From NCBI RefSeq assembly GCF_000341895.1, contig NC_020409.1, forward strand, positions 1,290,001 to 1,322,000: DNA of 32,000 nt. The letters run 5' to 3'. This document shows, one piece after another, positions 170-32,000 of the stretch. Made by a program: the position numbers and the translations under genes. How positions within the stretch are numbered: position 1 is the stretch's first letter; each line of letters opens with the position of its first letter. Under the pieces are notes generated by a model that saw nothing but the letters and a program-made list of their open reading frames with translations, ran no database searches and was not told where the DNA came from. Source of the stretch: Pseudodesulfovibrio piezophilus C1TLV30 (GTDB lineage: Bacteria > Desulfobacterota > Desulfovibrionia > Desulfovibrionales > Desulfovibrionaceae).

Positions 170-209
170 GATTCCCCACCTTCCATGAAGGGTGGGTGGG
201 GAATCTTTT
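170..209 (+). terminator. Hairpin plus T-run after the receptor gene (terminator or attenuator)
   Basis: gattccccacc (170-180) is the perfect reverse complement of ggtggggaatc (195-205). TTTT follows at 206-209. Confidence 0.5.
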
Positions 210-237
210 CTCTCATTTCTTTCTCGGGGAGGGGGAT

Positions 238-7675: not shown

Positions 7676-7962
7676 TCTCACTCCAATGTCACCAAAAGGG
7701 GCGATAAGACTCCCTCTCAACTGATAAAAACCCCTTGGATTCACTCGCAGGGCGAACTCCCTTGACCACAACCGTTGTCATCTCTTCAGACTTGACAAAA
7801 GGAGGCCGCCAATTCATATGTTTCAAACGAATTGCGGGTGCATGATGCCCGCGCGTAAGCGTTAACGACATCCAACGCACTAACTTGTCCGTATCGGGAC
7901 AGGAAAGTGCGTTTTTTTGTGCCTTTCTGTATTCTGGTCGGATAATAAAATATGGAGGGCAT

Positions 7963-10319: not shown

Positions 10320-10340
10320 CCTACTCTTCCTTCATGCTTT

Positions 10341-11201: not shown

Positions 11202-11202
11202 A

Positions 11203-16509: not shown

Positions 16510-16526
16510 GACATACCACTCACATA

Positions 16527-17284: not shown

Positions 17285-17312
17285 ATTTTATGAAAATGAA
17301 TTTCATTCTCAA
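17285..17312 (-). promoter_or_regulatory. Sigma70-like promoter of the 8-gene operon with an embedded Fur-box dyad
   Basis: The minus strand reads TTGAGA (17312-17307), a 16-nt spacer, then TAAAAT (17290-17285). The spacer region is the near-palindrome TGAAAATGAAtTTCATTCTCA (17291-17311), which matches the classical Fur box GATAATGATAATCATTATC at 14 of 19 positions. Confidence 0.6.
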
Positions 17313-18473: not shown

Positions 18474-18531
18474 TCTCTTCTCCTGCTCATGTTTATCAAC
18501 ACAAACTCCGCAGGTGAGCCGAAATACTCTA

Positions 18532-19836: not shown

Positions 19837-19876
19837 ATATTTTCTCCATTCCCAAAGTGTTATAACAACACATCAA

Positions 19877-21646
19877 CTAGGCTGTTGCCGCTTGCGGAGC
19901 CTCTTCGTGCCCACTAACAATAGAACGGGCCGCTGTCTGTTGCTCCCACATGCGGGCATATCTGCCATCTGCGGCAACCAATGTATCGTGTGAGCCTCGT
20001 TCGAGTATGCTGCCACCTTCGACCACAAGAATCTGATCCGCAGCAACAACCGTTGCCAGACGATGTGCAATCAACAGCAGAGTCTTGCCTGACACCAGAT
20101 TCTGAATTGCCTCCTGAATCATCCGCTCGTTGTCGAGATCAACCGAAGCTGTCGCCTCGTCCAGCACAATGATCGGAGAATCTTTGAGAATTGCACGGGC
20201 AATAGACAGACGCTGCCGCTGACCACCGGAGAGATTACACCCATTTTCCCCCACCAAAGTATCGTAGCCCTTCGGCATCATATCGATGAATTCACTGCAT
20301 CGGGCGGCCCGGGCAGCAGCAGACACTTCTTCATCTGATGCAGAAGGTCTGGCAAACCGAATATTCTCTCTGATGCTGTCATCAAAAAGTGACACGCGCT
20401 GGAAAACCACACTGATCTGATTCCACATGTCTTTTTCTGTCATATTTCGAATATCAACCCCGCCAATGAGAATCGAACCGGAATCAACATCCCAGAAACG
20501 GCACAGCAGGCTGGCGATGGTCGATTTACCAGCGCCGGACATGCCCACGATGGCGGTCATGGATTTGGCTGGGACAACAAAACTCACATCTGACAAAGCA
20601 GTATCAGATTCATAGGCAAAGGATACATTTGTAAAGGAAACGGAACTCTCCGCGGGCATGGAGCCAGTCTTGACAGGTCGGGGGAGCAACGGCGCGTCGT
20701 CCACTTCTTTCAGCCGTCGAGCCGCAGCCGCCATTTGCTGCATAAACCCCAACAGATCCACGAGTTCATGAGTAGGTCCGTACACTCGTATGCACATGAC
20801 AGCCGCAAAAACAAAATGTGCAAAATATAAATTCCCAGCCGCAGTCCCCGCGTTCAGGGGAAATCCGAATCCCACAAGCCCGGCATAACCAAGTTCGAGA
20901 CATGTAAAATACAGGATAGCCGCTGTCCCGACGTACTTCACGAGCCCCAAGTTGACATCACGATGCCTGATTGCGGCATCAGTGTATAAAGCCGCCCGTT
21001 TTCCCTTGAGGCTGAATAATTTGATAACACTGATACCATGGCAAAATTCCACTGTTCTGGAAACGAGATCACTGGTTGCTGCAATGCGTTCCGGCATTCT
21101 TGCCGCCAAACGCCCATTGATCCAACGCATGAGCAAAACACCGGGCACAAGGCCGCTTGCTGCGAGCAAAGCAAGCCGCCAATCCACAAGAGCAATGCAG
21201 CAGACACCACCGACAACCTGTGCAAGCACACTGGCTGTCGCCGCTATCTTTTCCACAAAAACCGGCTCGACGCTGGATAAATCATGCAACAAAGCTCCAC
21301 TGATTTCACCCAAATCCCTGCGGGAATACCATGACACCGGAAGCTGGCGCAGACGATCCGCATAGTGCAGGCGTAACCGTTCCAGAATCTTGAACCCGGT
21401 CATGTGCCCCACACTGATGGATGCAGAATGAACGCCGAAACGCACCAACACGATACCCAAAAGACTCACACCGCAAGCCAACGCACCCCAGCCGGCCGCA
21501 GTCTCAGGGAAAAGTACTGACAAGAGTGCATGGTACAAGACAACAACCGGTAAAAGCGAAAGAAAACCATCCACAGCGCGAAGCCCTGTCCCGATCATCA
21601 TCCTCTTCAAAAACGGACCTGCGAGCATTTTGACTAATTGAACCAT
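19877..21646 (-). CDS. ABC half-transporter (N-terminal 6-TM exporter-fold domain + C-terminal ATPase), YbtQ/IrtB-like by context
   Basis: Walker A GMSGAGKST, signature LSGGQRQR, Walker B IIVLDEATS. ATG 21646 overlaps the upstream TAA (TAATG) and follows GGAGG. The track start at 21721 lies inside the upstream gene. Confidence 0.9.
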   Translation of the reverse strand: MVQLVKMLAGPFLKRMMIGTGLRAVDGFLSLLPVVVLYHALLSVLFPETAAGWGALACGVSLLGIVLVRFGVHSASISVGHMTGFKILERLRLHYADRLRQLPVSWYSRRDLGEISGALLHDLSSVEPVFVEKIAATASVLAQVVGGVCCIALVDWRLALLAASGLVPGVLLMRWINGRLAARMPERIAATSDLVSRTVEFCHGISVIKLFSLKGKRAALYTDAAIRHRDVNLGLVKYVGTAAILYFTCLELGYAGLVGFGFPLNAGTAAGNLYFAHFVFAAVMCIRVYGPTHELVDLLGFMQQMAAAARRLKEVDDAPLLPRPVKTGSMPAESSVSFTNVSFAYESDTALSDVSFVVPAKSMTAIVGMSGAGKSTIASLLCRFWDVDSGSILIGGVDIRNMTEKDMWNQISVVFQRVSLFDDSIRENIRFARPSASDEEVSAAARAARCSEFIDMMPKGYDTLVGENGCNLSGGQRQRLSIARAILKDSPIIVLDEATASVDLDNERMIQEAIQNLVSGKTLLLIAHRLATVVAADQILVVEGGSILERGSHDTLVAADGRYARMWEQQTAARSIVSGHEEAPQAATA

Positions 21647-23535
21647 TATGCCACCTCCTGCGCGGGCTTCCATTCGGAATTGTGCTGCGATAATTGCCAT
21701 AAATCCCTGTACATACCGCATCGATGCAACAAATCAGCATGCCTTCCGACATCGATGACATGCCCCTTGTCAAGCACGACAATCTGATCAACTCCCGCAA
21801 TGGTTTCAAGACGATGAGCCACAACAATGGCAGTCCGACCATGCAGGCTACCGGAGAGCGCTTTATTCATTTCAGCTTCAGTAAAAGCATCAACAGCAGA
21901 GGTCGCTTCATCAAGCAGGAGAATCGGAGCATCCTTGAGCAACGTCCTTGCCAGGGCAATCCTCTGTCGTTCACCACCAGACAAATTCGCGCCAAGTTCT
22001 CCAGCGACGCTGTCATACCCCTGAGGTTGTGCGGCGATGAAGTCATGGCAACACGCCTGCCGGGCGAGTTGCTCGACTTGAGAGTCCTCGGCATCCAGCT
22101 TGCCCATACGAATGTTCTCACGAAGGCTTTCATTAAATAATATGTTTTCCTGGAACATGAAGCCTATCTGCCCCATGAGCTCAGGTTCTGACATACTGCG
22201 GATGTCTTTCTCACCAATTTGAATAGAGCCGGAGGAAACATCCCAGAAACGCGGGACGAGACGGAGCAAAGTACTTTTTCCCGAACCGGAAAATCCAACA
22301 AGCGCTGTCACCGTTCCATGGGGGACAGTAAAACTCACGTCATGAAGAACATTTCCATCCGTGCCGTAAGCAAATGACACGTTGGAAAAAACCATATCTC
22401 CACCGGCATTGAGTTTCGAACCGGTTTCGGTTGAACTACCAAAAGCATGACCAGTCAATTCCTGTGCTTGCGGGTCATTTCCTTCACCTGTCGCTGCAAT
22501 GAGTTTCGCGGTATGGCCTTCACCTCTCTCAGGAACCGGCAGAGGGGCGGTATCCCACACCTGCTTCATACGTCGATAGCCCTCAAAAACACGGAGCAAA
22601 GCGTCATTTTGTTGCAACACCTTAAAAATGGGAGGGCTGAACTGCATGGAGAGAAGGACACAAAGGGTCAAACTTCCTGCCGAGAGAGAGCCTCTTCCAT
22701 AAAGCCACAACCCAAGTGGCAGTGTGAATAATATGGGATTTTCAATAGCAATAATGAAACCGGCTCGGGGAAGCGCCCAACGCTTTGCCCAGGTTTCCAC
22801 AACGTCCTGATACTCCCTCACGGCATCCATGAAATTGTTCAGCCCGGAGACAGTATGGGAAAACGCCTTGATCTCGTGGATATTACGTACAAACTCAATA
22901 ATTCGACTATTCAGGTTTTCCTGCGCGCTATGATAGCGAGCGGTTTCCTGCATATAATCCTTTGAGGCAATGGACATGATCATGATGGCCAGCGGAACGA
23001 CAACCACAGTCGCAAGTGCCATTCGATAGTCTACCCATACAAGTGCAGCCAGAACAAGAAAGGGCATGACCAATGCGGCAGAAAGATCCTCAAGATGATG
23101 AGCAATGAACCCTTCAAATTCCTCCACGTCATCAACGAGCATCTTTTTCAACTCACCGGTGGTGGAACTGGAAAAAAAACCGAGGGGAAGAGTCGCCAAG
23201 TGGTCTGCAAGGCCTGTTCTGATTTCATATAAGGTTTCATAGGCAACAGTATGGGCAAGTCCTCCGGCGACAGTCCGCAGCAGCAACCGTGACAGCAAGG
23301 CGCAAAGCACAATCCCACCCATGGTATATTGCGTGGCACTGTCAGAAAAAGCCATGGTTCCGGTAGAGAATCCATCGACGATAAACGCAATGACAAGACT
23401 GGGGGTCAGCCCCAGCAGAGCCGCAATCCCTGAGGCGACACAGGCAATAATGAGCCTTCGCTTATTGGCGTCTGAAAAACCAAGCCCACGGATCAGATCT
23501 CTCAATTGTCCCAAATAACTTTGACGCTCTTCCAT
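21646..23535 (-). CDS. ABC half-transporter (exporter-fold TMD + ATPase), YbtP/IrtA-like by context
   Basis: Walker A GFSGSGKST, signature LSGGERQR, Walker B ILLLDEATS. A Gly/Ser/Thr-rich linker sits between the TMD and NBD. I prefer ATG 23535; the track uses TTG 23547. Confidence 0.9.
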   Translation of the reverse strand: MEERQSYLGQLRDLIRGLGFSDANKRRLIIACVASGIAALLGLTPSLVIAFIVDGFSTGTMAFSDSATQYTMGGIVLCALLSRLLLRTVAGGLAHTVAYETLYEIRTGLADHLATLPLGFFSSSTTGELKKMLVDDVEEFEGFIAHHLEDLSAALVMPFLVLAALVWVDYRMALATVVVVPLAIMIMSIASKDYMQETARYHSAQENLNSRIIEFVRNIHEIKAFSHTVSGLNNFMDAVREYQDVVETWAKRWALPRAGFIIAIENPILFTLPLGLWLYGRGSLSAGSLTLCVLLSMQFSPPIFKVLQQNDALLRVFEGYRRMKQVWDTAPLPVPERGEGHTAKLIAATGEGNDPQAQELTGHAFGSSTETGSKLNAGGDMVFSNVSFAYGTDGNVLHDVSFTVPHGTVTALVGFSGSGKSTLLRLVPRFWDVSSGSIQIGEKDIRSMSEPELMGQIGFMFQENILFNESLRENIRMGKLDAEDSQVEQLARQACCHDFIAAQPQGYDSVAGELGANLSGGERQRIALARTLLKDAPILLLDEATSAVDAFTEAEMNKALSGSLHGRTAIVVAHRLETIAGVDQIVVLDKGHVIDVGRHADLLHRCGMYRDLWQLSQHNSEWKPAQEVA

Positions 23536-23570
23536 AGTGTTAGCCAAACCTTTATCTGCAAAAAGTGCAG

Positions 23571-23617: not shown

Positions 23618-25822
23618 TTAGAAGGAAACCTGAGCCATAATGCCCAAGGAACGAGGAGCGAGCATCGGTCCGACGCTTGTCTGCCCAGCCATCATCGAAG
23701 AGTTGTCGAAAGCAGTGGACATGACCTCTTCATTCAACAGGTTTTTCCCATACAAATAGACGCTATAGTTTTCTTTTTCATACCCGACTTTGGCACTCAC
23801 CATATTCACGGGATCTTGCAGTGTCGTATTATCCAAATCGATATAGTAGGAATCGACGTAGGTATTTTCTGCTCGTATGAACAGCCCTTCAAGCACGCCA
23901 CTCTGGACCGTATGCTGTACGCCGAGGTTGAATTTGACATCAGGAGAATAAGGAGTCTCAGCGCCACTGTAGGTTGCGGAGCTATCGCCCGCATCATCGA
24001 CCTCCGCTTCCATAAGCGTCAATGCACTGAACACGTCCCACCCGTCGGTCACGCGGTATTTTGCTTCGACTTCAAGACCCTGACTATGAGATTCACCGGC
24101 ATTGTCCACGACTGAACCAGCGGGAATCAGCTTGATGAGCTGCTGATCCTTCATAAGAATATAAAACAGAGCACAACTCAGATCGAGACGATGATCGAGA
24201 AGACTGGTTTTGGAGCCAATTTCATAACTCCATGAATACTCGGAATCGAAGTTCTCTTCTGCCAAGGGCACATTCGCGGTCATGAACCCGCCGGGTTTAT
24301 ACCCTCGTGTAACAGAGGCATAGACATTGATGTCCGGAGTAAAACGATACTCAACAACACCTTTGGGCAGAATTGCAGAGAACGCTTTTTTCCCTTCCGC
24401 ATTGTACGTAGCATCAAGTCCAAACGCACTCAGGACTGCGGCGTTCCCTTCATTCAAGGCGTCCCCTTCCATATCCTTATAGACTTGATCGTAGCGGAGA
24501 CCGCCAGTGACATAGATTTTGTCGGTCAGTCCATACGTGGCCTGACCAAAGACCGCTCCGTTATAGACCTTGACCGTTGTATCCTGGTTGCGGATAACAT
24601 CACCAAGACCGGAAAAAGCGGGGTTTACAGTGACCAGGTAACTATTGGTAATGGAGTACACATCGCGGGTACGCTGCTTCTCATACGAACCATACACGCC
24701 GGAGACCCATTGCAAACGAGCATCCTTATCCAAGGTATGCAGTCGTAACTCCTGGGAGAACTGACTGTTGTTCAATCGAAAACGACTGCCCAGATAATCG
24801 TTCGACGTAAAATCCACATCACTGTTCTCTTCATAGGAATAATCCCGATGCCCGGTCACCGATGTCAGCCCAATGCTGTCACCATCATTTTCCATCGTAA
24901 GAACCTGTCCGAATGCTTCCGACTCCACTCCACCCAGATCATCCTGATCAGTATGCCACGGGTCATCAGCAAAATTCTGAGCAGTATTATAGATGCTGTA
25001 GTCACCATGTCTCCGATACCCGTTCAAATTCAAATTAACGGAAAAGTCATCGGAGGGTTGAAGTGCGAGCTGCCCGCGCAGGCTGAAGCTCTCAGACCCG
25101 GCACCATCCTCGTCACGGGTATCATTCTTGAAAAACCCATCTGAATGCTCATACCCACCGGCAATACGGACAGCCGCAGTCTCCGACAAAGGCGCATTCA
25201 CCATGCCGCTCAATCGCTTCGTATTATAGGATTCATAAGCCGCTGAAAAATCAACTTCCTTTTCGAATACCGGTTTTTTGGAACGCATGACCATAGCACC
25301 AGCAAGGGTATTGGGTCCGTACAAAGTCCCCTGTGGGCCACGTAAAACTTCTACGTCTTCCATATCGAAGAACATTGGTTCATATCCACCGTTGATACTC
25401 ACACCATCACGAAAAAGGCCTACCGGGCGACTGAAAAAGTCAGATCCTCCCGACACCAAGCCGCGAATGTTGATAATGGTATGAGCATCCGCTCCGCCAA
25501 TACTGCGGGCAAACACCCCTGCCGTATACCGAGACAACTCATCCACATCTTCAAGCTGGGCATCTTCGATCTGCTGGCCATCGAAGTAGCTGATACTCAC
25601 CGGGACCTCGACCAAACGTTGTTCGAGCTTCTGAGAAGTCACCACAACATCTGGTAATGTTACATTTTTCCTGTTCTGCGCGTCTTCCTCATCCTTTGAC
25701 GCAGCTTCTACCACCTCGGTGTCGGAAACCGGATCAGCTGCAAAGCCCGCCCCCGGTAAGCCAAGCAACAGCACCGTTGCGAGGCAATAAGACACCACTC
25801 TCTCCTTGACAAAAAACCCCAT
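23618..25822 (-). CDS. TonB-dependent outer-membrane siderophore receptor
   Basis: Signal peptide MGFFVKERVVSYCLATVLLLGLPGAGFA and TonB-box-like LPDVVVTSQK. Plug motifs are VEVLRGPQGTLYGPNTLAGA. A long beta-barrel ends ...LGIMAQVSF*. ATG 25822 follows AAAGGAG. Confidence 0.9.
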   Translation of the reverse strand: MGFFVKERVVSYCLATVLLLGLPGAGFAADPVSDTEVVEAASKDEEDAQNRKNVTLPDVVVTSQKLEQRLVEVPVSISYFDGQQIEDAQLEDVDELSRYTAGVFARSIGGADAHTIINIRGLVSGGSDFFSRPVGLFRDGVSINGGYEPMFFDMEDVEVLRGPQGTLYGPNTLAGAMVMRSKKPVFEKEVDFSAAYESYNTKRLSGMVNAPLSETAAVRIAGGYEHSDGFFKNDTRDEDGAGSESFSLRGQLALQPSDDFSVNLNLNGYRRHGDYSIYNTAQNFADDPWHTDQDDLGGVESEAFGQVLTMENDGDSIGLTSVTGHRDYSYEENSDVDFTSNDYLGSRFRLNNSQFSQELRLHTLDKDARLQWVSGVYGSYEKQRTRDVYSITNSYLVTVNPAFSGLGDVIRNQDTTVKVYNGAVFGQATYGLTDKIYVTGGLRYDQVYKDMEGDALNEGNAAVLSAFGLDATYNAEGKKAFSAILPKGVVEYRFTPDINVYASVTRGYKPGGFMTANVPLAEENFDSEYSWSYEIGSKTSLLDHRLDLSCALFYILMKDQQLIKLIPAGSVVDNAGESHSQGLEVEAKYRVTDGWDVFSALTLMEAEVDDAGDSSATYSGAETPYSPDVKFNLGVQHTVQSGVLEGLFIRAENTYVDSYYIDLDNTTLQDPVNMVSAKVGYEKENYSVYLYGKNLLNEEVMSTAFDNSSMMAGQTSVGPMLAPRSLGIMAQVSF

Positions 25823-25892
25823 GATAACTCCTTTCTCAACTCTCGACAGTGAAAGACGATTGACGACAACTCCAAGGCGAAAACCCACCTCT

Positions 25893-26057: not shown

Positions 26058-26657
26058 TTATTCCGCAAACAAGGATTCAATCTGCGTACAGATCTCTTCA
26101 ACCAGACCCGCGATGTTCAGATCTGGATTCATCACGAGCCGGAGCGGTATCCCGGAGACGGCAAGCATAAGCATTTCAATACGAGCATCTAATGTCTCCG
26201 CTGACCAATGAGGGCGATACTCGGCAGCTATGGTCATGAGCTGTGCCTTGACTGAAGCATCGTGCAAACGCATGGCTTTTGCCACCTCAGGATTCCTGCT
26301 CATCTCAGCCATAATCTCGAACATTATGGCAATCTTCTTGTCACCTGCTTTCAGTTGACACTGCACACGCGTTTGAGTCTGAAGTATTTCCACAACATCA
26401 TCAGTTTCTTCAAAGAGCGTCTGCAACCCCTCCTGAAGGGCCTGTACCTGTGCTTCCACTAGCGCGCAGACAATCGCATCCTTGTTTTCAAAATACCCGT
26501 AGATATTTCCGATACTCATTTTCGCGGTCTTCGAAAGCAATGACATTCCGGCACCGCAAAACCCGTATGTCGCAAAACATTCTTCTGCGGCTTCAAGAAG
26601 TTGCATTTTCCGTGCTCTTGCCCGGTCTTCATCCCGGTGCATTTTTATTGACTGCAA
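26058..26657 (-). CDS. TetR-family transcriptional regulator
   Basis: N-terminal HTH region LLEAAEECFATYGFCGAGMSLLSKTAKMSIGNIYGYFENKDAI. The track start at 26657 is TTG, with AAGGGGG just upstream. ATG 26642 is an alternative start. Confidence 0.85.
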   Translation of the reverse strand: MQSIKMHRDEDRARARKMQLLEAAEECFATYGFCGAGMSLLSKTAKMSIGNIYGYFENKDAIVCALVEAQVQALQEGLQTLFEETDDVVEILQTQTRVQCQLKAGDKKIAIMFEIMAEMSRNPEVAKAMRLHDASVKAQLMTIAAEYRPHWSAETLDARIEMLMLAVSGIPLRLVMNPDLNIAGLVEEICTQIESLFAE

Positions 26658-26748: not shown

Positions 26749-27441
26749 TCATTTTTGTGAATCTTTATGAAACCAAGCAATTGCAGCAACATAAGGACCT
26801 TTCACTTGGACGTTTTGCACTTGAATTTTTCTGCCTCCATGAAAGACAGTTCCCATTTCATTTTGCACACACGGAATCTTTATACTGTCCATAGGCAGTG
26901 CAAGTCCTTGCCCTATTGCCTTATGAACAGCCTCATGCCGGACCCAGCATTGCAGAAAGGCCATATCTGCATCATTGGCCAAGCTTATGCTCAAATGCTC
27001 TTCGGCTGAGAACCATCTGCCACTTATCAATGCAGCCTCGGGGACAGGAGCAATCTTTTCGATATCCACGCCGAGTTCATGCTCCAAGCTGACGCCAAGC
27101 AATGCCCGATTCCCGGAATGGGAAAGGGTAAAATCGAGCTTGCTCTCCGACAGAAAGGGCTTCCCCCCATCCGAATAGACCAAAGGAACCTCACTTCTTT
27201 CACACCCAAGATACCCCGCCAGCACCCCCCTTAGCCACAGACGACATTGAATATATCGATTTCGTGAGAGAGGACACCCGAAAAGGTCAGCCTTTTCCTG
27301 TTCATCTAGGCTCAATCCGTCAAGCATGCTTTGACTGCTCCAACCAGCTTCAATGTCGTCCAACTGCCAGAGATGAATCTCACTTTCAGCAATGAAGAAC
27401 TGACCGTCCCTTCTCCTTTCCAAATTCCAGACTCGCTCCAC
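26749..27441 (-). CDS. Sfp-type 4'-phosphopantetheinyl transferase
   Basis: Motifs FTLSHSGNRALLGVS, GVDIEKI and WVRHEAVHKAIGQG (W/FxxxEAxxKA). GTG start at 27441 with GGAG 7 nt upstream. Confidence 0.85.
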   Translation of the reverse strand: MERVWNLERRRDGQFFIAESEIHLWQLDDIEAGWSSQSMLDGLSLDEQEKADLFGCPLSRNRYIQCRLWLRGVLAGYLGCERSEVPLVYSDGGKPFLSESKLDFTLSHSGNRALLGVSLEHELGVDIEKIAPVPEAALISGRWFSAEEHLSISLANDADMAFLQCWVRHEAVHKAIGQGLALPMDSIKIPCVQNEMGTVFHGGRKIQVQNVQVKGPYVAAIAWFHKDSQK

Positions 27442-27638: not shown

Positions 27639-27668
27639 TTGATAATGAAAATCAAAATCAATTATCAA
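27639..27668 (+). promoter_or_regulatory. NRPS promoter overlapped by a Fur-box hexamer array
   Basis: GATAATGAAAATCAAAATC (27641-27659) matches the Fur consensus GATAATGATAATCATTATC at 16 of 19 positions and continues as AATTATC. It also reads as the hexamers GATAAT-GAAAAT-CAAAAT-CAATTA. TTGATA (27639-27644) and TATCAA (27663-27668) fit -35 and -10 elements 18 nt apart. Confidence 0.7.
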
Positions 27669-27722
27669 TCTATGGCCTGTTGAGAATCGATTCATGTAAA
27701 CAAGCTATAACAGAGGGATACA

Positions 27723-29430
27723 ATGTACACGACGAACCCGGTCTCTAGTCATCAATTAGTGAATACCTTGACCACAGTACTCGAAGAAACCGCTATTCGG
27801 TTTCCAGACAAGGGCATAACATATGTCAATCCAAGCGGTTCTACCGAGGATTTCCAAAGTTACCCTCAGCTCCTCTTTGAAGGAAAAGCCACTGCACATG
27901 TTTTGTATAAAAAAGGCTTCAAACCCGGAGACCACCTCATCATCGCCGTAGATGATTCAAAAAGTTTCCTGAATATTTTCTGGGGGTGCCTTTATGGGGG
28001 AATTATACCAGCCCCTGTTTCGCATATCCGCACCCCCAACGCAGACTCCATGGAAATTCAAAAGATAGTGAACATCCAAGGAATACTTGATGCTCCTGTT
28101 ATTGCAGAGAGCAGCAATATCGGCGCTTTCAGGGTGCTGGAGGCAGAGCTTGCAAAACGAAAAGGGGAACTGCTTGCATCAGAGACGCTTCTCAACGAAG
28201 CCGAACTCGCTGACATTACTATGGCCGACTTCTATACGCCCTCACCAAATGATATCGCGGTCCTCCAATTCTCTTCCGGTAGTATGGGAATGCCGAAAGG
28301 AGCCAAGCTTACCCACCGCAACCTCTTGGCAAACATCATCGCATTGCAGAATGTCGAACAGGTAACCGATGAAGACACGATGGTCTCATGGCTGCCATAT
28401 TTTCACGATTTCGGTCTCTTCGGCTGCCACCTCATGCCTCTGCACGCCGGTATGAAGCAGGTCAAAATGAGCCCCTTCCAATTTGCGCAACGCCCTTTTC
28501 TCTGGATGCAGAAAATACACGAACACAAGGCAACAGCGACTTCCACCACCAATACAGGGGTGGAGCATCTGCTCTCATACATCAAATTGCGCAAGAAACG
28601 GCTTCCCGAGGTTGATCTCTCCTGCCTCAAGACCTTCACTGTCGGCGCGGAAATGATCTCAGCACAATCATGCATCGACCTTGAGGAAGCCCTCGGTCCA
28701 ATGGGATTTCCCCGCAATATAATCATGCCCGGATACGGATTAACCGAAACCACTCTGGTTGCGACATGCCATCCAAACGGACTTCCCATTCAATCAAGCT
28801 TCATTGACAGAGAAGCAATGGCTTCACGCAACATCGCCCGATATGTGGAACAGACACATGCCAATGCTGCACAATTCACCAATGTTGGGCCAGCAGTCAG
28901 TTTCTGCCATATTCGTATAGTGGATAGCGAAGGAAAAGAACTCCCGGAAAAGCATATCGGGGAAGTGCAGATATCCGGCGAGAACGTTATTACCGAATAT
29001 CATAATGCGCCGGAAGCCACTGCACAGTCCTTTCACGACGAATGGTTTGCAACCGGGGACCTCGGCTTTATGAACAAAGAGAAAGAACTTTTTATCGTTG
29101 GCCGGGGAAAGGAACTTATCATCGTCCGAGGACAAAATTACTACCCTGCGGACATTGAAAAAATCGCCCTCACTGGTTTGGAAGAGAACTTTCGCGTTGT
29201 TGTTGCCTGCGCCGCATACAATGACAAAACATCCCGCGAAGAAACAGTGCTGTTCTATATTCCTGCAAACAAAAAGGAAAATTTGGAAGAGACTGCACAC
29301 GCCCTTATGCGGATCAATGAGAATGTCAGCACCCTCGCAGGATTCAGTATCGACCATTTCATTCCCATGAAGCAGGCGGAAATCCCCCGCACATCCAGCG
29401 GGAAAATAATGAGGAAATACCTCTCTGAAC
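27723..29430 (+). other. NRPS domain: fatty-acyl-AMP-ligase-like adenylation domain
   Basis: The A3-A10 core motifs have FAAL-style variants (WLPxFHDxGL, GRxKELIIVRGQNYYPxDIE). The domain sits at the N-terminus of the protein, directly followed by a carrier. Confidence 0.7.
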
Positions 29431-32000
29431 AATTTCGAGCCAATGCCTTTTCCGAAAAAGCGCTGGCTGTCAAAGAGGCACTGGCAAAGCTCGATGCTCC
29501 AGCCAATCCGGAAACACTGGACCATGAGACAGTGGTACGGGAGGCCTGGTCAGATGTCCTGGCTCTTGATGGTGACACAATCGATCAACACAAAAACCTG
29601 TTCAAACTTGGGGGAGATTCCATCCGTGCCATGCGAATTCAAGCTCGGCTGGAAGACACATATGGGGTCAAGATAGAGAGTAATTTCTGCTATCTGTTCT
29701 CAACCATTGCTGCACAGACAGCCTATTTCGAGACTCGGGACTTCAGCATCGAACCGCCACAAAACGAGCTTGAAGCCATTGTCCAGAAAATCGTGGCCAA
29801 TCACCTCGGTGTCCCCAATGACACGGTTGGTGTGACGGAAAACCTTATCAAACGCATCGGGTCCATTTCCGATATGCTCGCCATTGTAGAAGAAATAAAA
29901 CACTGCTTTGCGGAGGTGCCCTTTACTGACGCATTCCTACAGTGCTCCACACTTCGGGGCATGGCCGAATATTTATGGCCCCTCGTCTTTCCGGCTCCAG
30001 GTGAGCAGGAAGACGAATTCCTGCCGTTGATGCATTTCCAGGAGACTCTCTACTTTCACCACAAAGGATTTGTTCGCAACGAACCAAGCGGCCTCAGTTG
30101 CTACATTTATCTGAATGCCAATATGACAGGCCAATTGGATCTACCGACCTTCAATAAGGCGCTCAACTATGTCGTGAGCCGGCACCCCGTGTTGAGAACT
30201 GTCATAGACGAGGAACAGGCCAAACCTCGTATGCGAGTTCTCGCCGAAGTGCCTGAAATTGAGACAGGCTACATTGAACAAACCCACTTGTCGGAGAAAG
30301 ACCGCGCTGAATACATCCGTTTGCGTGGTCTCGAACATAACGACTACCGCTTTGATGTGACCCAATGGCCCCTATTTTTCTGCGAAATCACCAAATTCGA
30401 AGAGGAGAAGCATGTCTTCATGATGAATATCGACCACCTGCTGGTGGACGGCTACAGCTATATGCAGGTTTTCGAGGAACTCTTCAATACTTACGACAGG
30501 ATGCGCCGAGAGCAACCATGGGAGCTGGAGCCGCCACAAATGACCTTTGGCGACTATGTCCGCATCGAGGGACTGCGCCAACGCACCGCTGAATACCAAC
30601 AAGCCATGAAATTCCAGCTGGAAGTCTTCAAAGACCTGCCGGACAAGGCGACCCTGCCTTTTCGCCGGAACCCGGCCATGCTGAAAAAAGTCGAATTCGA
30701 CACTTTTTACCAGGAGATAGAGCCGGAAATAATCAACGAGCTCAATTCCATCGCAATGGAACACCAGATATCCCTCAATGCCATGCTGCTGGCTGCCTAC
30801 TTCAAACTGATGAATATATGGTGCCATCAGGATGATCTCATCATCAACATGCCAGTGTTCAACCGTGAACAATACTTCGCCGGAGCCCGAAAGACTGTCG
30901 GCAGTTTCATCGACATATTTCCGGTCCGTCTGAAAACATCGTTTGAAGAGCCAATACTGGATATCGCCAAAAAAGCTGAGGCCTTTACCCGAAAGCTTCT
31001 GGAAGTTCCGGTATCCTCGATCGAACTCTCCCGACGCATTTTCGAACGGGAGGGACGCCGAGCGACCTCCATGAGTTCAATTATCTTCAGCAACTCCATC
31101 GGAATGTATGCCGGAGAAGTGAGCAAGATGGAAAGCCTCAAGCTGGATACTCCCGAATTCCGCACCGGCGCTCCAGGCACTTTCATCGATCTTGTCATAT
31201 ACGACTACCGTGCTCGAATGGATCAGGAAGATACCTATTATTTCAACTGGAACTATATCCGGGACAGCTTTGACATTCAATTCATCCAGATTATCTCGGA
31301 GCAATATGAAACTCTCCTCCAACAGGTTATCAGCAGTTCCAGAACACGAGATGAAGAAAGCCAGTTCACATGCGCGGACATCATTCCCGAACAGTACCGT
31401 TCCCTTATTGAGAACGTCAACCAAACCGCAGTCGAGATACCGGAGAAAACACTCCATGAATTGATCGGACAAACCATGGAAAAACATCCAGACAAGACTG
31501 CCATAACATCAAAAGAACAGACCATCAGCTATCAGCAGTTCAACACGCTTTCCGGCGATGTGGCCAGGACACTTGCACAGCATTCCATCGGCAAGGGTGA
31601 TTTCGCGGCCCTGTATATGGGCAGAGACCAGACACTTCCCATGGCTCAGCTGGGGGCCATGCGAGCTGGGGCAGCTTATGTCCCTATAGACATTGATTAT
31701 CCCATAGAACGTATTGCGTATGTATTGGCTGATTCCGGTGCCCGTGTCCTGCTGACACAATCACATCTCCTCGGGGCACTGCAAGAGCATCTCAAGACGG
31801 TTGAATTGATTCTTGTCATGAATGAGGATGTCGAACCACAGGATATCCCATCCTCTCTGCGCGAAAAGACCATCCTTCCCCACGAAGTCTTCACCGAAAA
31901 ACAGGATATTGCTCTCCCGATATGTACACAGGATGACCTCGCTTACATGTTGTATACATCCGGCTCCACCGGCAATCCCAAAGGGGTGATGGTTACTCAC
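27723..32000 (+). CDS. Non-ribosomal peptide synthetase, 5' part (FAAL-like A domain, carrier, carrier-like, C, start of A); continues beyond the window
   Basis: ATG 27723 follows AGAGGGA. My frame-3 translation by eye met no stop through 32000 (1426 codons). Motifs seen in that frame: LQFSSGSMGMPKGAKLTHRNL, WLPYFHDFGLFG, MPGYGLTETT, GRGKELIIVRGQNYYPADIE, IPRTSSGKIMR, LGGDSIRAM, IDHLLVDGYS and LAYMLYTSGSTGNPKGVMVTH. It is not in the ORF track, presumably because it has no stop codon in the window. Confidence 0.9.
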   Translation, partial: MYTTNPVSSHQLVNTLTTVLEETAIRFPDKGITYVNPSGSTEDFQSYPQLLFEGKATAHVLYKKGFKPGDHLIIAVDDSKSFLNIFWGCLYGGIIPAPVSHIRTPNADSMEIQKIVNIQGILDAPVIAESSNIGAFRVLEAELAKRKGELLASETLLNEAELADITMADFYTPSPNDIAVLQFSSGSMGMPKGAKLTHRNLLANIIALQNVEQVTDEDTMVSWLPYFHDFGLFGCHLMPLHAGMKQVKMSPFQFAQRPFLWMQKIHEHKATATSTTNTGVEHLLSYIKLRKKRLPEVDLSCLKTFTVGAEMISAQSCIDLEEALGPMGFPRNIIMPGYGLTETTLVATCHPNGLPIQSSFIDREAMASRNIARYVEQTHANAAQFTNVGPAVSFCHIRIVDSEGKELPEKHIGEVQISGENVITEYHNAPEATAQSFHDEWFATGDLGFMNKEKELFIVGRGKELIIVRGQNYYPADIEKIALTGLEENFRVVVACAAYNDKTSREETVLFYIPANKKENLEETAHALMRINENVSTLAGFSIDHFIPMKQAEIPRTSSGKIMRKYLSEQFRANAFSEKALAVKEALAKLDAPANPETLDHETVVREAWSDVLALDGDTIDQHKNLFKLGGDSIRAMRIQARLEDTYGVKIESNFCYLFSTIAAQTAYFETRDFSIEPPQNELEAIVQKIVANHLGVPNDTVGVTENLIKRIGSISDMLAIVEEIKHCFAEVPFTDAFLQCSTLRGMAEYLWPLVFPAPGEQEDEFLPLMHFQETLYFHHKGFVRNEPSGLSCYIYLNANMTGQLDLPTFNKALNYVVSRHPVLRTVIDEEQAKPRMRVLAEVPEIETGYIEQTHLSEKDRAEYIRLRGLEHNDYRFDVTQWPLFFCEITKFEEEKHVFMMNIDHLLVDGYSYMQVFEELFNTYDRMRREQPWELEPPQMTFGDYVRIEGLRQRTAEYQQAMKFQLEVFKDLPDKATLPFRRNPAMLKKVEFDTFYQEIEPEIINELNSIAMEHQISLNAMLLAAYFKLMNIWCHQDDLIINMPVFNREQYFAGARKTVGSFIDIFPVRLKTSFEEPILDIAKKAEAFTRKLLEVPVSSIELSRRIFEREGRRATSMSSIIFSNSIGMYAGEVSKMESLKLDTPEFRTGAPGTFIDLVIYDYRARMDQEDTYYFNWNYIRDSFDIQFIQIISEQYETLLQQVISSSRTRDEESQFTCADIIPEQYRSLIENVNQTAVEIPEKTLHELIGQTMEKHPDKTAITSKEQTISYQQFNTLSGDVARTLAQHSIGKGDFAALYMGRDQTLPMAQLGAMRAGAAYVPIDIDYPIERIAYVLADSGARVLLTQSHLLGALQEHLKTVELILVMNEDVEPQDIPSSLREKTILPHEVFTEKQDIALPICTQDDLAYMLYTSGSTGNPKGVMVTH
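29520..29735 (+). other. NRPS domain: carrier protein 1 (canonical)
   Basis: FKLGGDSIRAMRIQARLEDTYG, with the phosphopantetheine Ser codon tcc at 29619-29621. Confidence 0.8.
29760..29990 (+). other. NRPS domain: second, atypical carrier-like domain
   Basis: ELEAIVQKIVANHLGVPNDTVGVTENLIKRIGSISDMLAIVEEIKHCF has ACP-like helix spacing. The motif reads GSISD (Ser codons 29862-29864 and 29868-29870) rather than G(x)DS(L/I). Confidence 0.45.
30010..31330 (+). other. NRPS domain: condensation domain (probable lipo-initiation C)
   Basis: Active-site motif MNIDHLLVDGYS at 30432-30452 (DHxxxDG, first His replaced by Asp). It is positioned between the acyl carriers and the first amino-acid A domain. 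Confidence 0.7.
31390..32000 (+). other. NRPS domain: amino-acid adenylation domain, N-terminal part
   Basis: LHELIGQTMEKHPDKTAITSKEQTISYQQFN (A1), AGAAYVPIDIDYPIERIAYVLADSG (A2), LAYMLYTSGSTGNPKGV (A3). The specificity-conferring residues lie beyond the window. Confidence 0.85.

What the first reader, a model, noticed from the sequence alone, without database searches (positions are those of the whole stretch)
27723..32000. 1426-codon NRPS reading frame absent from the supplied ORF track; lipo-initiation architecture FAAL-T-T'-C-A
I translated frame 3 by eye from ATG 27723 to the last base of the window and met no stop codon. The supplied track lists no plus-strand frame-3 ORF anywhere in this stretch, which fits one unbroken reading frame.

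The frame carries an ordered set of NRPS core motifs. These are a fatty-acyl-AMP-ligase-like adenylation domain, a canonical carrier (LGGDS), a second carrier-like domain, a C domain and the A1-A3 motifs of an amino-acid adenylation domain.

The C-domain motif is DHLLVDG, so the first His of HHxxxDG is Asp.

The only ORFs listed here are short antisense or off-frame ones, so anyone relying on the track would see about 4.3 kb of apparently empty DNA. A cis-fused FAAL-carrier loading module predicts an N-acylated (amphiphilic) peptide. The Fur-box array at 27639-27668 predicts iron repression.
Basis: seen in the sequence. Interest (0 to 1): 0.7.

Follow-up and report, generated by a model that had tools for sequence, protein, structure and literature searches.

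The report
Anaerobe lipid-azoline metallophore synthetase gene
The open frame is the first two-thirds of an already-annotated 2101-residue, one-module peptide synthetase from a deep-sea sulfate reducer; it joins a fatty acid to a single amino acid, probably closes a ring, and sits in an iron-regulated uptake cluster shared by many strict anaerobes whose product nobody has described.

Summary
Frame 3 is open from ATG 27723 to base 32000 (1426 codons). Its absence from the ORF track is mechanical, because ORFs that run off the window are not listed.

The gene is already public: WP_015414530.1, "non-ribosomal peptide synthetase", Pseudodesulfovibrio piezophilus, 2101 aa. It is not the start of a long lipopeptide line. 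It is a complete single module: FAAL–T–T′–C/Cy–A–T–TE.

- The FAAL call holds, and the FAAL-specific insertion is present.
- T′ has a true carrier fold, but its Ser is conserved in only 19 of 40 orthologues, so it is a pseudo-carrier.
The Cy cyclodehydration dyad (Ser1123/Asp1156) is invariant, and the closest solved relatives are Cy domains.
- The A-domain pocket (D-M-T/A-N-M-G-E-V-A-K) matches no code I know.
- Fur boxes precede the NRPS and the tailoring operon.
- Orthologues in Desulfobacterota, Bacteroidota, Chlorobiales and Clostridia keep an AraC regulator, a TonB receptor, reductases and methyltransferases.

Best reading: this is the core enzyme of an uncharacterised, iron-repressed lipid-azoline metallophore cluster of anaerobes. 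It is a new variant of a known kind and of moderate interest.

The parts
27641..27659 (+). Fur-box-like operator in the divergent PPTase/NRPS promoter region, 64-82 bp upstream of the ATG
   Evidence: It matches GATAATGATAATCATTATC at 16 of 19 positions, and 0 of 100 shuffles gave any match. Equivalent boxes lie upstream of the orthologous operons in Anaerobacterium (2-3 mismatches) and Halodesulfovibrio (4 mismatches).
27713..27717 (+). Shine-Dalgarno GAGGG, 5 nt before the start codon
   Evidence: Read directly from the sequence.
27723..32000 (+). First 1426 codons of a 2101-codon NRPS gene (WP_015414530.1). The window ends inside the second A domain, just after motif A3.
27750..29453 (+). 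FAAL-type acyl-adenylating loading domain (aa about 10-577)
   Evidence: Pfam AMP-binding, 318.9 bits. The best NCBIfam single-domain model is PRK09192, fatty acyl-AMP ligase. The PDB relatives are all in the FAAL clade: StsA, McyG, 3KXW, 3PBK, FadD32.
28755..28886 (+). FAAL-specific insertion region (aa about 345-388)
   Evidence: Residues 300-430 align without gaps to FadD32, E. coli FAAL 3PBK and FadD28. Only FAAL-clade structures are hit, and McyG, which lacks the segment, aligns only after it.
29532..29726 (+). Carrier T1 (aa 604-668), LGGDS, attachment Ser633 (codon 29619-29621)
   Evidence: Pfam PP-binding. Ser633 is present in 40 of 40 orthologues.
29748..29990 (+). T′ pseudo-carrier (aa 676-756), sequence GSIS; Ser716 occupies the attachment position
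   Evidence: PP-binding scores 18.6 bits, below the 20.8 cutoff. The family profile hits PCP and ACP domains end-to-end, E = 1.3e-5. AlphaFold2 gives pLDDT 93.3 and a helical bundle. All 50 listed Foldseek matches in the PDB are carrier proteins. The Ser is present in only 19 of 40 orthologues.
30015..31358 (+). Condensation-family domain with heterocyclization (Cy) character (aa 765-1212)
   Evidence: Pfam Condensation, 173.6 bits. The best PDB hits, full length, are BmdB-Cy (182 bits with the family profile), EpoB-Cy (135) and HMWP2-Cy2 (107). It aligns end-to-end with the bona fide Cy domain of P0073 (94.7 bits), but only over its N-terminal half with ordinary HHxxxDG C domains.
30432..30458 (+). 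Active-site motif D904-H905-L-L-V-D909-G910-Y-S912
   Evidence: Counts across 40 orthologues: D904 39 (one Glu), H905 40, D909 40, G910 40, S912 38.
31089..31190 (+). Positions aligned to the Cy cyclodehydration dyad: Ser1123 (31089-31091) and Asp1156 (31188-31190)
   Evidence: BmdB FTS and LD align to FSN and ID here. Both residues are present in 40 of 40 orthologues. The Asp-Thr dyad is described in PMC9547227.
31428..32000 (+). N-terminal part of the amino-acid A domain (aa 1236-1426, motifs A1-A3). The specificity pocket lies beyond the window.
   Evidence: Pfam AMP-binding. The pocket was read from P0001.
26749..27441 (-). Sfp-type 4'-phosphopantetheinyl transferase, divergent from the NRPS
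   Evidence: Pfam ACPS. A PPTase is also present in the clusters of L081, L085, L086, L087 and L088.
26058..26657 (-). TetR-family regulator
   Evidence: It is conserved in L089.
23618..25888 (-). TonB-dependent outer-membrane receptor
   Evidence: Pfam Plug plus the beta-barrel. A TonB-dependent receptor sits next to the orthologous NRPS in all 7 Gram-negative loci.
18532..23547 (-). Two ABC exporter half-transporters (21646-23547, 19877-21721) and a HlyD-type periplasmic adaptor (18532-19836). Coordinates are maximal ORFs.
   Evidence: The same trio is present in L083 and L089.
17406..18761 (-). AraC-family regulator (maximal ORF; the gene called in L083 is 355 aa)
   Evidence: An AraC regulator is present in all 8 loci with a visible flank.
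17292..17310 (-). Second, weaker Fur-like box upstream of the tailoring operon
   Evidence: GAAAATGAATTTCATTCTC, 4 mismatches. Three sites with 4 or fewer mismatches are observed against 0.095 expected (0 of 200 simulations reached 3), and two of the three lie in the 6.7% of the window that is intergenic.
9363..17195 (-). Putative tailoring operon. In order: PEMT/ICMT-type methyltransferase (16527-17195), thioesterase-like (15367-16509), two saccharopine-DH-like NAD(P) enzymes (14171-15496, 13085-14170), unknown (12069-13088), alpha/beta-hydrolase (11203-12072), LCM-type methyltransferase (10341-11201), CysK/M-type cysteine synthase (9363-10319).
   Evidence: The Sacchrp_dh, PEMT, LCM and hydrolase genes recur next to orthologous NRPSs.
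196..3925 (+). Fhu/Fec-type import system: ABC ATPase (196-1023), periplasmic binding protein (1014-1943) and a fused double FecCD permease (1940-3925)

Best explanation
The frame is the 5′ two-thirds of a single 2101-codon gene of Pseudodesulfovibrio piezophilus. The gene encodes a one-module NRPS with the architecture FAAL–T1–T′(pseudo-carrier)–Cy-like C–A–T2–TE.

**Shown**
- The domain order.
- Intact catalytic and attachment residues in every working domain.
- The FAAL insertion.
- A carrier fold in T′ without a conserved Ser.
- Fur boxes ahead of the gene and ahead of the tailoring operon.
- A syntenic partnership with an AraC regulator, a TonB-dependent receptor, exporters, a PPTase, reductases and methyltransferases in anaerobes of at least three phyla.

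**Inferred mechanism**
1. Under iron limitation Fur releases the promoter.
2. The FAAL domain adenylates a fatty (or other lipophilic) acid and loads it on Ser633 of T1.
3. The A domain loads one amino acid on Ser1814 of T2. Its pocket, D-M-T/A-N-M-G-E-V-A-K, is invariant at eight of ten positions across the family.
4. The condensation-family domain forms the amide. It keeps the C-type His905 and also carries the Cy motif DxxxxDxxS and the Ser1123/Asp1156 dyad. It then probably cyclodehydrates the amide to a 2-alkyl-azoline-4-carboxyl thioester.
5. The TE (Ser1946/His2077) releases the product.
6. The co-located reductases and methyltransferases tailor it, the ABC/HlyD system exports it, and the TonB receptor with the FecCD system brings back its metal complex.

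The product would be a small amphiphilic lipid-azoline (or lipo-amino-acid) metallophore. The cluster-encoded CysK/M may supply Cys or a beta-substituted alanine as the building block.
For: - **Identity and architecture:**
- **FAAL:**
- **T′:**
- **Cy character, similarity:** BmdB-Cy is the top PDB hit with the single sequence (113 bits) and with the family profile (182 bits, E = 1e-52). EpoB-Cy and HMWP2-Cy2 are the next best full-length single-domain hits.
- **Cy character, alignment:** it places DHLLVDGYS on DALLMDGAS, FSN on FTS and ID on LD. The Asp-Thr dyad and its role in cyclodehydration are described in PMC9547227. All of these residues are invariant or nearly so in 40 orthologues.
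- **Control:** ordinary FAAL-T-C synthetases carry HHxxxDG and align only to the N-terminal half. The Streptomyces FAAL-T-Cy-A-Ox-T protein P0073 aligns end-to-end.
- **Iron link:** Fur boxes. feoB directly precedes the orthologue in Halodesulfovibrio, with TonB nearby. XusB and a TonB receptor are present in Marinilabiliaceae. A TonB-dependent receptor is present in 7 of 7 Gram-negative loci and an AraC regulator in 8 of 8. A FecCD/binding-protein/ATPase importer lies in the window.
- **CysK/M:** it passes the NCBIfam cutoff (348.8 against 344.15) and is also in the Halodesulfovibrio cluster.
Against: - No product, expression or metal-binding data exist for any member, and I found nothing in the searchable literature.
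- By motif anchoring, the A-domain pocket does not match the canonical Cys, Ser or Thr codes as I recall them. It shares only N278, and G301/V330 with Thr. Its invariant Glu at position 322 would suit an amide or cationic side chain. An acceptor without a beta-nucleophile would rule out azoline formation.
- The dyad Thr is Ser here, and the helper Gln is absent (as in BmdB).
- The invariant His905 is the hallmark of ordinary C domains and is atypical after the first Asp of Cy motifs.
- Several other Cy structures (PchE, FmoA3, HMWP2-Cy1) score no better than ordinary C domains.
- No PchG/YbtU-type thiazoline reductase is present.
- The chelating groups of a mono-azoline lipid would be weak for Fe(III), so the target metal is unknown.
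Confidence: 0.58

Rival explanations
1. The enzyme makes a plain lipo-amino acid. The domain acts as an ordinary, starter-type C domain using His905, and the Cy-like residues are ancestral relics. The enzyme simply releases a linear N-acyl amino acid, which is then O- or N-methylated by the PEMT/LCM enzymes. That product serves as a surfactant, membrane lipid, signal or weak metal ligand.
For: - His905, D909 and G910 are invariant, as in catalytic C domains.
- The A-domain pocket does not match known Cys, Ser or Thr codes (plus my own recall of the codes).
- ICMT/PEMT-family and LCM-family methyltransferases typically methylate carboxylates of lipidated substrates.
- The architecture FAAL-T-C-A-T-TE needs nothing more to yield an N-acyl amino acid.
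Against: - The Cy dyad positions are 40/40 invariant across phyla that share only about 35% identity, which points to selection rather than relic status.
- The C-terminal subdomain aligns only with Cy domains.
- The first His of the canonical C-domain motif HHxxxDG is Asp or Glu in all 40.
- The linkage to Fur, TonB receptors, FeoB and XusB argues for a metal-related role in either case.
Confidence: 0.27
2. The acyl chain is a temporary handle, as in pyoverdine. It only anchors the intermediate to the membrane during tailoring and export, and is then removed by one of the cluster's alpha/beta-hydrolases or thioesterase-like proteins. The mature metallophore is therefore not amphiphilic.
For: - The top NCBIfam hit over residues 10-664 is PRK05691, a 4334-aa NRPS model that I take to be PvdL-like.
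- PvdL's first C domain is among the better PDB hits.
- The clusters carry one or two alpha/beta-hydrolases, an extra thioesterase-like protein and PvdE-like ABC exporters.
Against: - After deacylation a single amino acid or azoline would be left, which is too small to be a useful chelator unless it is oligomerised or further built up.
- No Ntn-hydrolase (PvdQ type) is present.
- That PRK05691 corresponds to PvdL is my recollection, not a test.
Confidence: 0.1
3. This is the first reader's implied model: the opening module of a long, multi-module amphiphilic lipopeptide siderophore line that continues beyond the window.
For: Within the window alone the frame stops inside the A domain, so further modules could not be excluded.
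Against: - The full protein is 2101 aa and ends A-T-TE.
- The next gene in the near-identical contig L083 is a 376-aa PP-loop enzyme, followed by convergent transporters.
- No second NRPS gene appears in any of nine loci.
Confidence: 0.01

Closest known systems
Heterocyclization (Cy) modules of thiazoline/oxazoline siderophore and related synthetases: BmdB (bacillamide), HMWP2 (yersiniabactin), PchE/PchF (pyochelin), EpoB
   Same: - The DxxxxDxxS motif is present.
- Asp of the catalytic dyad is invariant, and a hydroxyl residue sits at the Thr position.
- The domain aligns to Cy domains over its full length, and BmdB-Cy is the best solved relative.
- Regulation combines an AraC-type regulator with Fur, and a TonB-dependent receptor is present. 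From my own knowledge, this resembles PchR and YbtA.
   Different: - The C-type catalytic His is kept after the first Asp, where Cy domains usually have Leu or Met.
- The dyad has Ser instead of Thr.
- The donor is a FAAL-loaded acyl chain rather than salicylate or a peptide.
- There is a single module with its own TE.
- The A-domain pocket is unlike the usual Cys code.
- No PchG/YbtU-type reductase and no salicylate synthase are present.
Streptomyces FAAL-T-Cy-A-Ox-T synthetases (P0072, P0073, P0076; uncharacterised as far as I know)
   Same: They are collinear over 99% of the query, starting with the same FAAL-T loading pair followed by a Cy-family domain and an A domain.
   Different: - They carry a textbook Cy motif (DSLIADFSS, no His), a Thr dyad residue and the helper Gln.
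- They have a nitroreductase-type oxidase domain inside the A domain.
- They have no TE and no T′.
- Identity is only about 23-25%.
Cis lipo-initiation modules FAAL-T-C(starter) of lipopeptide synthetases, such as the PvdL N-terminus and the many FAAL-T-C-A… proteins among the distant hits (P0044-P0060)
   Same: An FAAL with the FAAL insertion is fused to a carrier, followed by a condensation-family domain that accepts the acyl donor.
   Different: - Those use canonical HHxxxDG C domains and continue into multi-module lines.
- This one has a Cy-like domain and an extra pseudo-carrier, and it terminates after one module.
Enterobactin machinery EntE-EntB(ArCP)-EntF (A–T + C–A–T–TE)
   Same: The overall logic is the same: acid-activating A, then T, C, A, T and TE, making an acylated single amino acid under Fur control with a TonB receptor. 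EntF is among the PDB hits.
   Different: - The loading domain is FAAL-type, not a DHB-AMP ligase.
- No catechol pathway is present.
- All domains are fused in one polypeptide.
- Iterative TE oligomerisation is untested here.

Membership tests
Non-ribosomal peptide synthetase (modular, thiotemplate) | A, T (with Ser), C and TE domains in collinear order | tested here: met
   Pfam finds AMP-binding twice, PP-binding, Condensation and Thioesterase in order. T1 Ser633 and T2 Ser1814 are present in 40 of 40 orthologues, TE Ser1946 in 39 of 40 and His2077 in 40 of 40.
Fatty acyl-AMP ligase (FAAL) | ANL-superfamily adenylating fold closest to FAALs | tested here: met
   The PDB hits are StsA, McyG, 3KXW, 3PBK, FadD32, FadD23 and FadD28. 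The best single-domain NCBIfam model is PRK09192, fatty acyl-AMP ligase.
Fatty acyl-AMP ligase (FAAL) | FAAL-specific insertion of about 20 aa after the YGLxE motif | tested here: met
   Residues 300-430 align gap-free with FadD32, 3PBK and FadD28. McyG, which lacks the segment, aligns only from residue 84 of that piece.
Fatty acyl-AMP ligase (FAAL) | Curated NCBIfam FAAL model cutoff reached | tested here: not met
   PRK09192 scores 343 bits against a cutoff of 600. The model describes stand-alone enzymes, so this weakens a subfamily assignment but not the fold.
Fatty acyl-AMP ligase (FAAL) | Transfers acyl-AMP to a carrier and not to CoA; fatty-acid substrate | not testable with these tools
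   Cis fusion to T1 implies carrier loading. The chain length and even the class of acid are unknown, since the nearest structure, StsA, selects a keto acid.
Functional carrier (T/PCP) domain, applied to T′ | Four-helix carrier fold | tested here: met
   Profile hits to PCP and ACP, AlphaFold2 pLDDT 93.3, and all 50 listed Foldseek matches are ACP or PCP.
Functional carrier (T/PCP) domain, applied to T′ | Conserved (G/x)(D/H/N)S phosphopantetheine attachment Ser | tested here: not met
   The Ser is present in only 19 of 40 orthologues, and the preceding residue is hydrophobic (L/I/M/V/F) in all 40. This protein reads G-S-I-S. PP-binding scores 18.6 bits, below the 20.8 cutoff.
Canonical NRPS condensation domain | HHxxxDG active-site motif | tested here: not met
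   The first His is Asp (39 of 40) or Glu (1 of 40). The second His, the Asp and the Gly are invariant.
Heterocyclization (Cy) domain | DxxxxDxxS motif | tested here: met
   D904 and D909, with S912 present in 38 of 40.
Heterocyclization (Cy) domain | Asp-Thr cyclodehydration dyad (PMC9547227) | tested here: inconclusive
   The Asp is met (D1156, 40 of 40). The Thr position is Ser1123 (40 of 40), which keeps the hydroxyl but has not been tested in function. The helper Gln is absent, as in BmdB-Cy2.
Heterocyclization (Cy) domain | Closest sequence relatives are Cy domains | tested here: met
   BmdB-Cy, EpoB-Cy and HMWP2-Cy2 are the best full-length single-domain PDB matches. The domain aligns end-to-end with the Cy domain of P0073. 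No C/Cy phylogeny (such as NaPDoS) was available.
Heterocyclization (Cy) domain | Cognate A domain loads Cys, Ser or Thr | tested here: inconclusive
   The pocket D-M-T/A-N-M-G-E-V-A-K does not equal the canonical codes as I recall them. No specificity predictor was available.
Siderophore/metallophore biosynthetic cluster | Fur-type operator at the promoter | tested here: met
   Boxes are also present at the orthologous promoters in two other lineages.
Siderophore/metallophore biosynthetic cluster | Dedicated TonB-dependent receptor, importer and exporter genes adjacent | tested here: met
   The arrangement is conserved across nine loci.
Siderophore/metallophore biosynthetic cluster | Product binds a metal and production responds to metal limitation | not testable with these tools
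   This needs culture, LC-MS and binding assays.

The most novel reading that the evidence does not exclude
This protein family carries a previously unrecognised class of condensation domain, intermediate between C and Cy: a 'His-retaining Cy' with D-H-x-x-x-D-G-x-S plus a Ser/Asp dyad. It builds a lipid-azoline from a FAAL-loaded acyl chain and an unusual amino acid, possibly a CysK-derived beta-substituted alanine. The product would be the first biosynthetically defined endogenous metallophore of sulfate reducers and other strict anaerobes (Desulfobacterota, Bacteroidota, Chlorobiales, Clostridia), used to obtain iron or another metal in sulfidic habitats.
Probability: 0.3. Interest if true: 0.75.

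Novelty: new variant of a known kind. Interest (0 to 1): 0.55.

Why it matters
Strict anaerobes, and sulfate reducers in particular, are generally thought to rely on Fe(II) uptake and on siderophores made by other organisms. I found no report of a self-made siderophore in them.

This family is a compact, one-gene core synthetase. It is conserved with a TonB receptor, an AraC regulator and Fur boxes across at least three phyla of anaerobes, including relatives of gut and oral genera such as Tannerella and Desulfovibrio-like organisms. That makes the question directly testable.

Enzymologically, a domain that keeps the C-type His alongside the Cy motif and dyad could show how heterocyclization domains evolved from condensation domains, and which residues carry out each half-reaction. 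The pseudo-carrier T′ is a second small puzzle for NRPS architecture.

For the scan itself there is a practical lesson. Apparently empty DNA at a window edge can be an ORF that the track omits by rule.

Tried and rejected
1. **Genome-contig scan.** The back-translated patterns were generic A-domain motifs. I used exact-protein look-ups instead.
2. **Look-up of P0001.** It was not on record. The near-identical metagenome copy P0121/L083 supplied the downstream genes.
3. **Glycine specificity from LgrA.** I first read the 557-bit LgrA hit as affinity to its Gly-activating A domain. The alignment showed it is the sum of two A domains (271 + 279 bits), so I dropped that inference.
4. **SbnA-type Dap synthase.** The PALP enzyme scores 232 bits against the SbnA cutoff of 350 but passes the CysK/M cutoff. 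An alternative Dap route through the saccharopine-DH-like enzymes remains pure speculation.
5. **Sigma-70 promoter scan of the intergenic region.** The count was not above shuffles, and one hit overlaps the ATG. I did not use it.
6. **PDB searches for accessory proteins.** The Sacchrp_dh-like protein found nothing. DUF7411 gave only a weak match to an N-acetyl-sugar amidotransferase.
7. **Literature searches.** Searches for Desulfovibrio/anaerobe NRPS siderophores, FAAL+Cy lipopeptides and the pocket string found nothing relevant.
8. **Pseudogene or artefact.** Rejected: the frame is intact, the protein is 100% identical to the public one, and 40 or more full-length orthologues keep the catalytic residues invariant.
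Full report
**1. The observation.**
Translating window 27723-32000 on the plus strand gives 1426 codons without a stop. No plus-strand ORF in that frame appears in the ORF list for the region. This has a trivial cause: the ORF tool states that ORFs running off either end of the source are not listed. The "4.3 kb of apparently empty DNA" is a window-edge artefact.

The start codon is credible. GAGGG lies 5 nt upstream. The public protein P0001 (CCH48482.1 / WP_015414530.1, "non-ribosomal peptide synthetase", Pseudodesulfovibrio piezophilus, 3.65-Mb genome) starts with the same residues and is 100% identical over the whole query. The gene is therefore real, intact and already annotated generically.

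**2. Architecture.**
Pfam recovers the predicted order in the window fragment: AMP-binding (21-426), PP-binding (604-668), Condensation (765-1212) and AMP-binding (1236-1426). The full 2101-aa protein adds the rest of the A domain, AMP-binding_C, a third PP-binding stretch and a C-terminal thioesterase. The enzyme is thus a complete single module, FAAL–T1–T′–C–A–T2–TE, and not the head of a multi-module lipopeptide line.

In the near-identical metagenomic contig L083, the next gene is a 376-aa PP-loop enzyme (DUF7411, WbuX-like), followed by convergent MacB-type transporter genes. No second NRPS gene occurs in any of the nine orthologous loci I examined.

**3. The loading domain is FAAL-type.**
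The best single-domain NCBIfam model is PRK09192, fatty acyl-AMP ligase. Its score is below the curated cutoff (343 against 600), as expected for a fused domain. All solved relatives belong to the FAAL clade: StsA keto-acid A domain, McyG, Legionella and E. coli FAALs, FadD32, FadD23 and FadD28.

The region after YGLTE (residues 300-430) aligns without gaps to FadD32, 3PBK and FadD28. McyG, which lacks the segment, aligns only after it. The FAAL-specific insertion is therefore present. The nature of the acid is not established: fatty is most likely, but the closest structure selects a keto acid.

**4. T1 and T′.**
T1 has LGGDS, and Ser633 is present in 40 of 40 orthologues.

The segment 676-756 scores just below Pfam's PP-binding threshold on its own (18.6 against 20.8 bits). 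Other evidence shows it is a carrier fold:
- A 24-sequence family profile matches PCP and ACP domains end-to-end (LgrA PCP E = 1.3e-5).
- AlphaFold2 models it with pLDDT 93.3.
- All 50 listed Foldseek matches in the PDB are acyl or peptidyl carrier proteins, with TM about 0.65-0.8.

The residue at the attachment position is Ser in only 19 of 40 orthologues (Ala 9, Gly 5, Gln 3, Lys 3, Asn 1). It is always preceded by a hydrophobic residue instead of Asp, His or Asn. T′ is therefore a conserved pseudo-carrier. In this protein the Ser is present (GSIS), so modification cannot be excluded, but the family pattern argues for a structural or spacer role.

**5. The condensation-family domain is Cy-like.**
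In 40 orthologues the motif is [D39/E1]-H40-x-x-x-D40-G40-x-S38. That is the heterocyclization signature DxxxxDxxS with the C-type catalytic His retained at the second position.

Similarity evidence:
- With the single sequence, the best solved relative is the bacillamide synthetase Cy domain (113 bits, aligned over residues 28-446 of the domain).
- With a 10-sequence family profile, BmdB-Cy scores 182 bits (E = 1e-52).
- The next best full-length single-domain matches are EpoB-Cy (135) and HMWP2-Cy2 (107). The interleaved BacC and PvdL scores are sums over two C domains.
- Most ordinary C domains, and all the highest-scoring ones, align only to the N-terminal 310-330 residues.

The residue-level alignment places BmdB's FTS and LD on FSN (Ser1123) and ID (Asp1156). 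PMC9547227 describes an Asp-Thr dyad whose mutation severely affects cyclodehydration, a helper Gln that BmdB-Cy2 lacks, and Leu or Met as the usual residue after the first Asp. Ser1123 and Asp1156 are present in 40 of 40 orthologues, and the helper position is Val in 40 of 40, as in BmdB.

As a control, five ordinary FAAL-T-C synthetases among the distant hits all carry HHxxxDG. They align to this domain over only its N-terminal part (60-69 bits). The Streptomyces FAAL-T-Cy-A-Ox-T protein P0073, with a textbook Cy domain, aligns end-to-end at 94.7 bits with the motif and dyad in register.

I conclude that the domain belongs with, or is sister to, Cy domains and is plausibly competent for cyclodehydration. 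Retention of His905 makes it an unusual hybrid. Several other Cy structures score no better than C domains, and I could not run a proper phylogeny.

**6. The A domain.**
Anchoring on the core motifs (my recollection of GrsA numbering), the ten pocket residues are D-M-T/A-N-M-G-E-V-A-K. Eight are strictly invariant across the family; position 239 is T in 28 and A in 12, and position 299 is M in 37 and L in 3. The substrate is therefore fixed.

The string occurs nowhere in the searchable literature. It does not equal the Cys, Ser or Thr codes as I recall them, though it shares N278, G301 and V330 with Thr. The invariant Glu at position 322 is reminiscent of Asn or His pockets, or of pockets for cationic side chains.

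An early temptation to infer glycine from a 557-bit LgrA hit was wrong. That score is the sum of two A domains. The amino acid is unresolved, and this is the main weakness of the heterocyclization model.

A CysK/M-type cysteine synthase passes the NCBIfam cutoff and does not pass the SbnA cutoff. It closes the tailoring operon here and also sits in the Halodesulfovibrio cluster. This is compatible with supply of Cys or of a beta-substituted alanine.

**7. Regulation and context.**
GATAATGAAAATCAAAATC at 27641-27659 matches the 19-bp Fur consensus at 16 of 19 positions, and 0 of 100 shuffles gave any match. Allowing 4 mismatches, the window holds three sites against 0.095 expected (0 of 200 simulations reached three). 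Two of the three fall in the 6.7% of the window that is intergenic: one ahead of the NRPS, and one at 17292-17310 ahead of the tailoring operon.

Equivalent boxes precede the orthologous operons in Anaerobacterium (GATAATGATTATCAAAATC, about 100 bp upstream, plus another ahead of the AraC gene) and, more weakly, in Halodesulfovibrio. A simple sigma-70 scan was uninformative.

Upstream of the NRPS on the minus strand lie the following genes:
- an Sfp-type PPTase and a TetR regulator;
- a TonB-dependent receptor;
- two ABC exporter half-transporters and a HlyD adaptor;
- an AraC regulator;
- an eight-gene operon: PEMT/ICMT methyltransferase, thioesterase-like protein, two saccharopine-DH-like enzymes, an unknown, an alpha/beta-hydrolase, an LCM methyltransferase and CysK/M.

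The left end of the window encodes a Fec/Fhu-type importer.

**8. Comparative genomics.**
About 40 full-length orthologues (33-64% identity, 2030-2125 aa) come from Pseudodesulfovibrio, Nitratidesulfovibrio, Desulfocurvibacter, Halodesulfovibrio, Desulfobulbaceae, Chlorobiales, Tannerella, Marinilabiliaceae and Anaerobacterium. From my own knowledge, every named host is an anaerobe.

Across nine loci:
- An AraC regulator is present in 8 of 8 with a visible flank.
- A TonB-dependent receptor is present in 7 of 7 Gram-negative hosts.
- A saccharopine-DH-like enzyme is present in most. It overlaps the NRPS stop codon in L086, follows it directly in L087, and is fused to an MMPL transporter in L081.
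- PPTase, PEMT, LCM, hydrolases and ABC exporters recur.

In Halodesulfovibrio, feoB ends 38 bp before the NRPS start and tonB lies nearby. In Marinilabiliaceae the receptor is paired with an XusB-family protein. From my own knowledge, that family binds siderophores in Bacteroides. Some clusters add giant BcrAD_BadFG/DUF2229 proteins, a hallmark of strictly anaerobic radical chemistry.

**9. Interpretation.**
Identity and architecture are essentially certain. A metal-acquisition role is well supported by regulation and synteny, but it is not demonstrated. Azoline formation is plausible (roughly even odds) and rests on motif, dyad and similarity evidence. The unknown acceptor amino acid counts against it.

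The rivals are a plain N-acyl amino acid product, a pyoverdine-like transient acyl handle, and the multi-module lipopeptide model. The last is refuted.

**10. Novelty and score.**
The gene is not new to databases, and the "missing ORF" is an artefact. NRPS siderophore clusters with FAAL initiation or Cy domains are known kinds.

What is new is the combination: FAAL plus pseudo-carrier plus His-retaining Cy-like domain in a self-contained module, an unassigned invariant pocket, and its conservation with uptake genes specifically in strict anaerobes. I could find no description of a product for any of this.

I rate it a new variant of a known kind, with interest 0.55.

Noticed in passing
window 3970-4632 and 4557-5138 (+): Two adjacent, overlapping ORFs each give only a partial, sub-threshold MFS_1 match (17 and 28 bits). 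This looks like one MFS transporter gene split by a frameshift, so either a pseudogene or a sequencing error.
   Followed up: no
window 17292-17310: A second Fur-like box (GAAAATGAATTTCATTCTC, 4 mismatches) lies in the gap between the AraC gene and the PEMT gene, upstream of the eight-gene tailoring operon. The site count at this stringency is far above expectation (3 observed, 0.095 expected).
   Followed up: partly
window 742-760: A near-palindromic Fur-like 19-mer (GATATTCATCATCAATATC, 4 mismatches on both strands) lies inside the ABC-ATPase ORF 196-1023. It could be chance or an internal operator.
   Followed up: no
window 5699-7675 (+) and 7885-9135 (+): An AT3-SGNH fused membrane acyltransferase and an MFS transporter sit between the Fec-type importer and the tailoring operon. 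Whether they belong to the cluster is unknown.
   Followed up: no
L083 16514-17644; L089 16557-17663; L084 21243-22292: A PP-loop ATP-pyrophosphatase-type protein (DUF7411) follows the NRPS in three lineages. It matches the WbuX N-acetyl-sugar amidotransferase model at 106 bits and gives a weak hit to PDB 8WEX. Enzymes of this superfamily make amidines or thio-carbonyls, so it could modify the product's amide.
   Followed up: partly
L081 23641-26327; L084 17063-21262; L088 23461-26291: Giant proteins of about 1400 aa carrying BcrAD_BadFG and DUF2229 domains (activase-type ATPases of anaerobic radical enzymes) are part of the cluster in Halodesulfovibrio, Anaerobacterium and Desulfobulbaceae. 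They are absent from the stretch of the P. piezophilus cluster that I could see.
   Followed up: no
L081 7912-9963 and 18563-22060: In Halodesulfovibrio, feoB ends 38 bp before the NRPS start, so the two are likely one operon. The saccharopine-DH-like enzyme there is fused to an MMPL/RND-type transporter (1165 aa), which suggests tailoring coupled to export.
   Followed up: no
L085 5196-8879: In Marinilabiliaceae JC017 the cluster's TonB-dependent receptor is followed by an XusB-family (PF14298) protein. From my own knowledge, this pairing is the one Bacteroides uses for xenosiderophore capture.
   Followed up: no
P0072, P0073, P0076, P0091, P0102: A separate family of about 2060-aa synthetases, named from Streptomyces where a name is given, has the precomputed domain set AMP-binding, PP-binding, Condensation and a nitroreductase-type domain. 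For P0073 I confirmed the order FAAL-T-Cy-A(Ox)-T and a textbook Cy motif. It is collinear with the query and predicted to make 2-alkyl-thiazoles or oxazoles.
   Followed up: partly
P0045 (Chitinophaga sp. MD30, 2486 aa): The sequence contains a verbatim repeat of an entire C-A segment (from 'FDYSSFNNAFKELVRRHESLRTV…' onward). This looks like an assembly or gene-model duplication rather than biology.
   Followed up: no
window 17406-18761 vs 18532-19836, 19877-21721 vs 21646-23547, and 14171-15496 vs 15367-16509 (-): The maximal ORFs overlap by 75-230 nt. Gene calls in the near-identical contig L083 are shorter (AraC 355 aa, ABC 589 and 629 aa, TetR 194 aa), so the true starts lie downstream of the first in-frame start codons.
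   Followed up: partly
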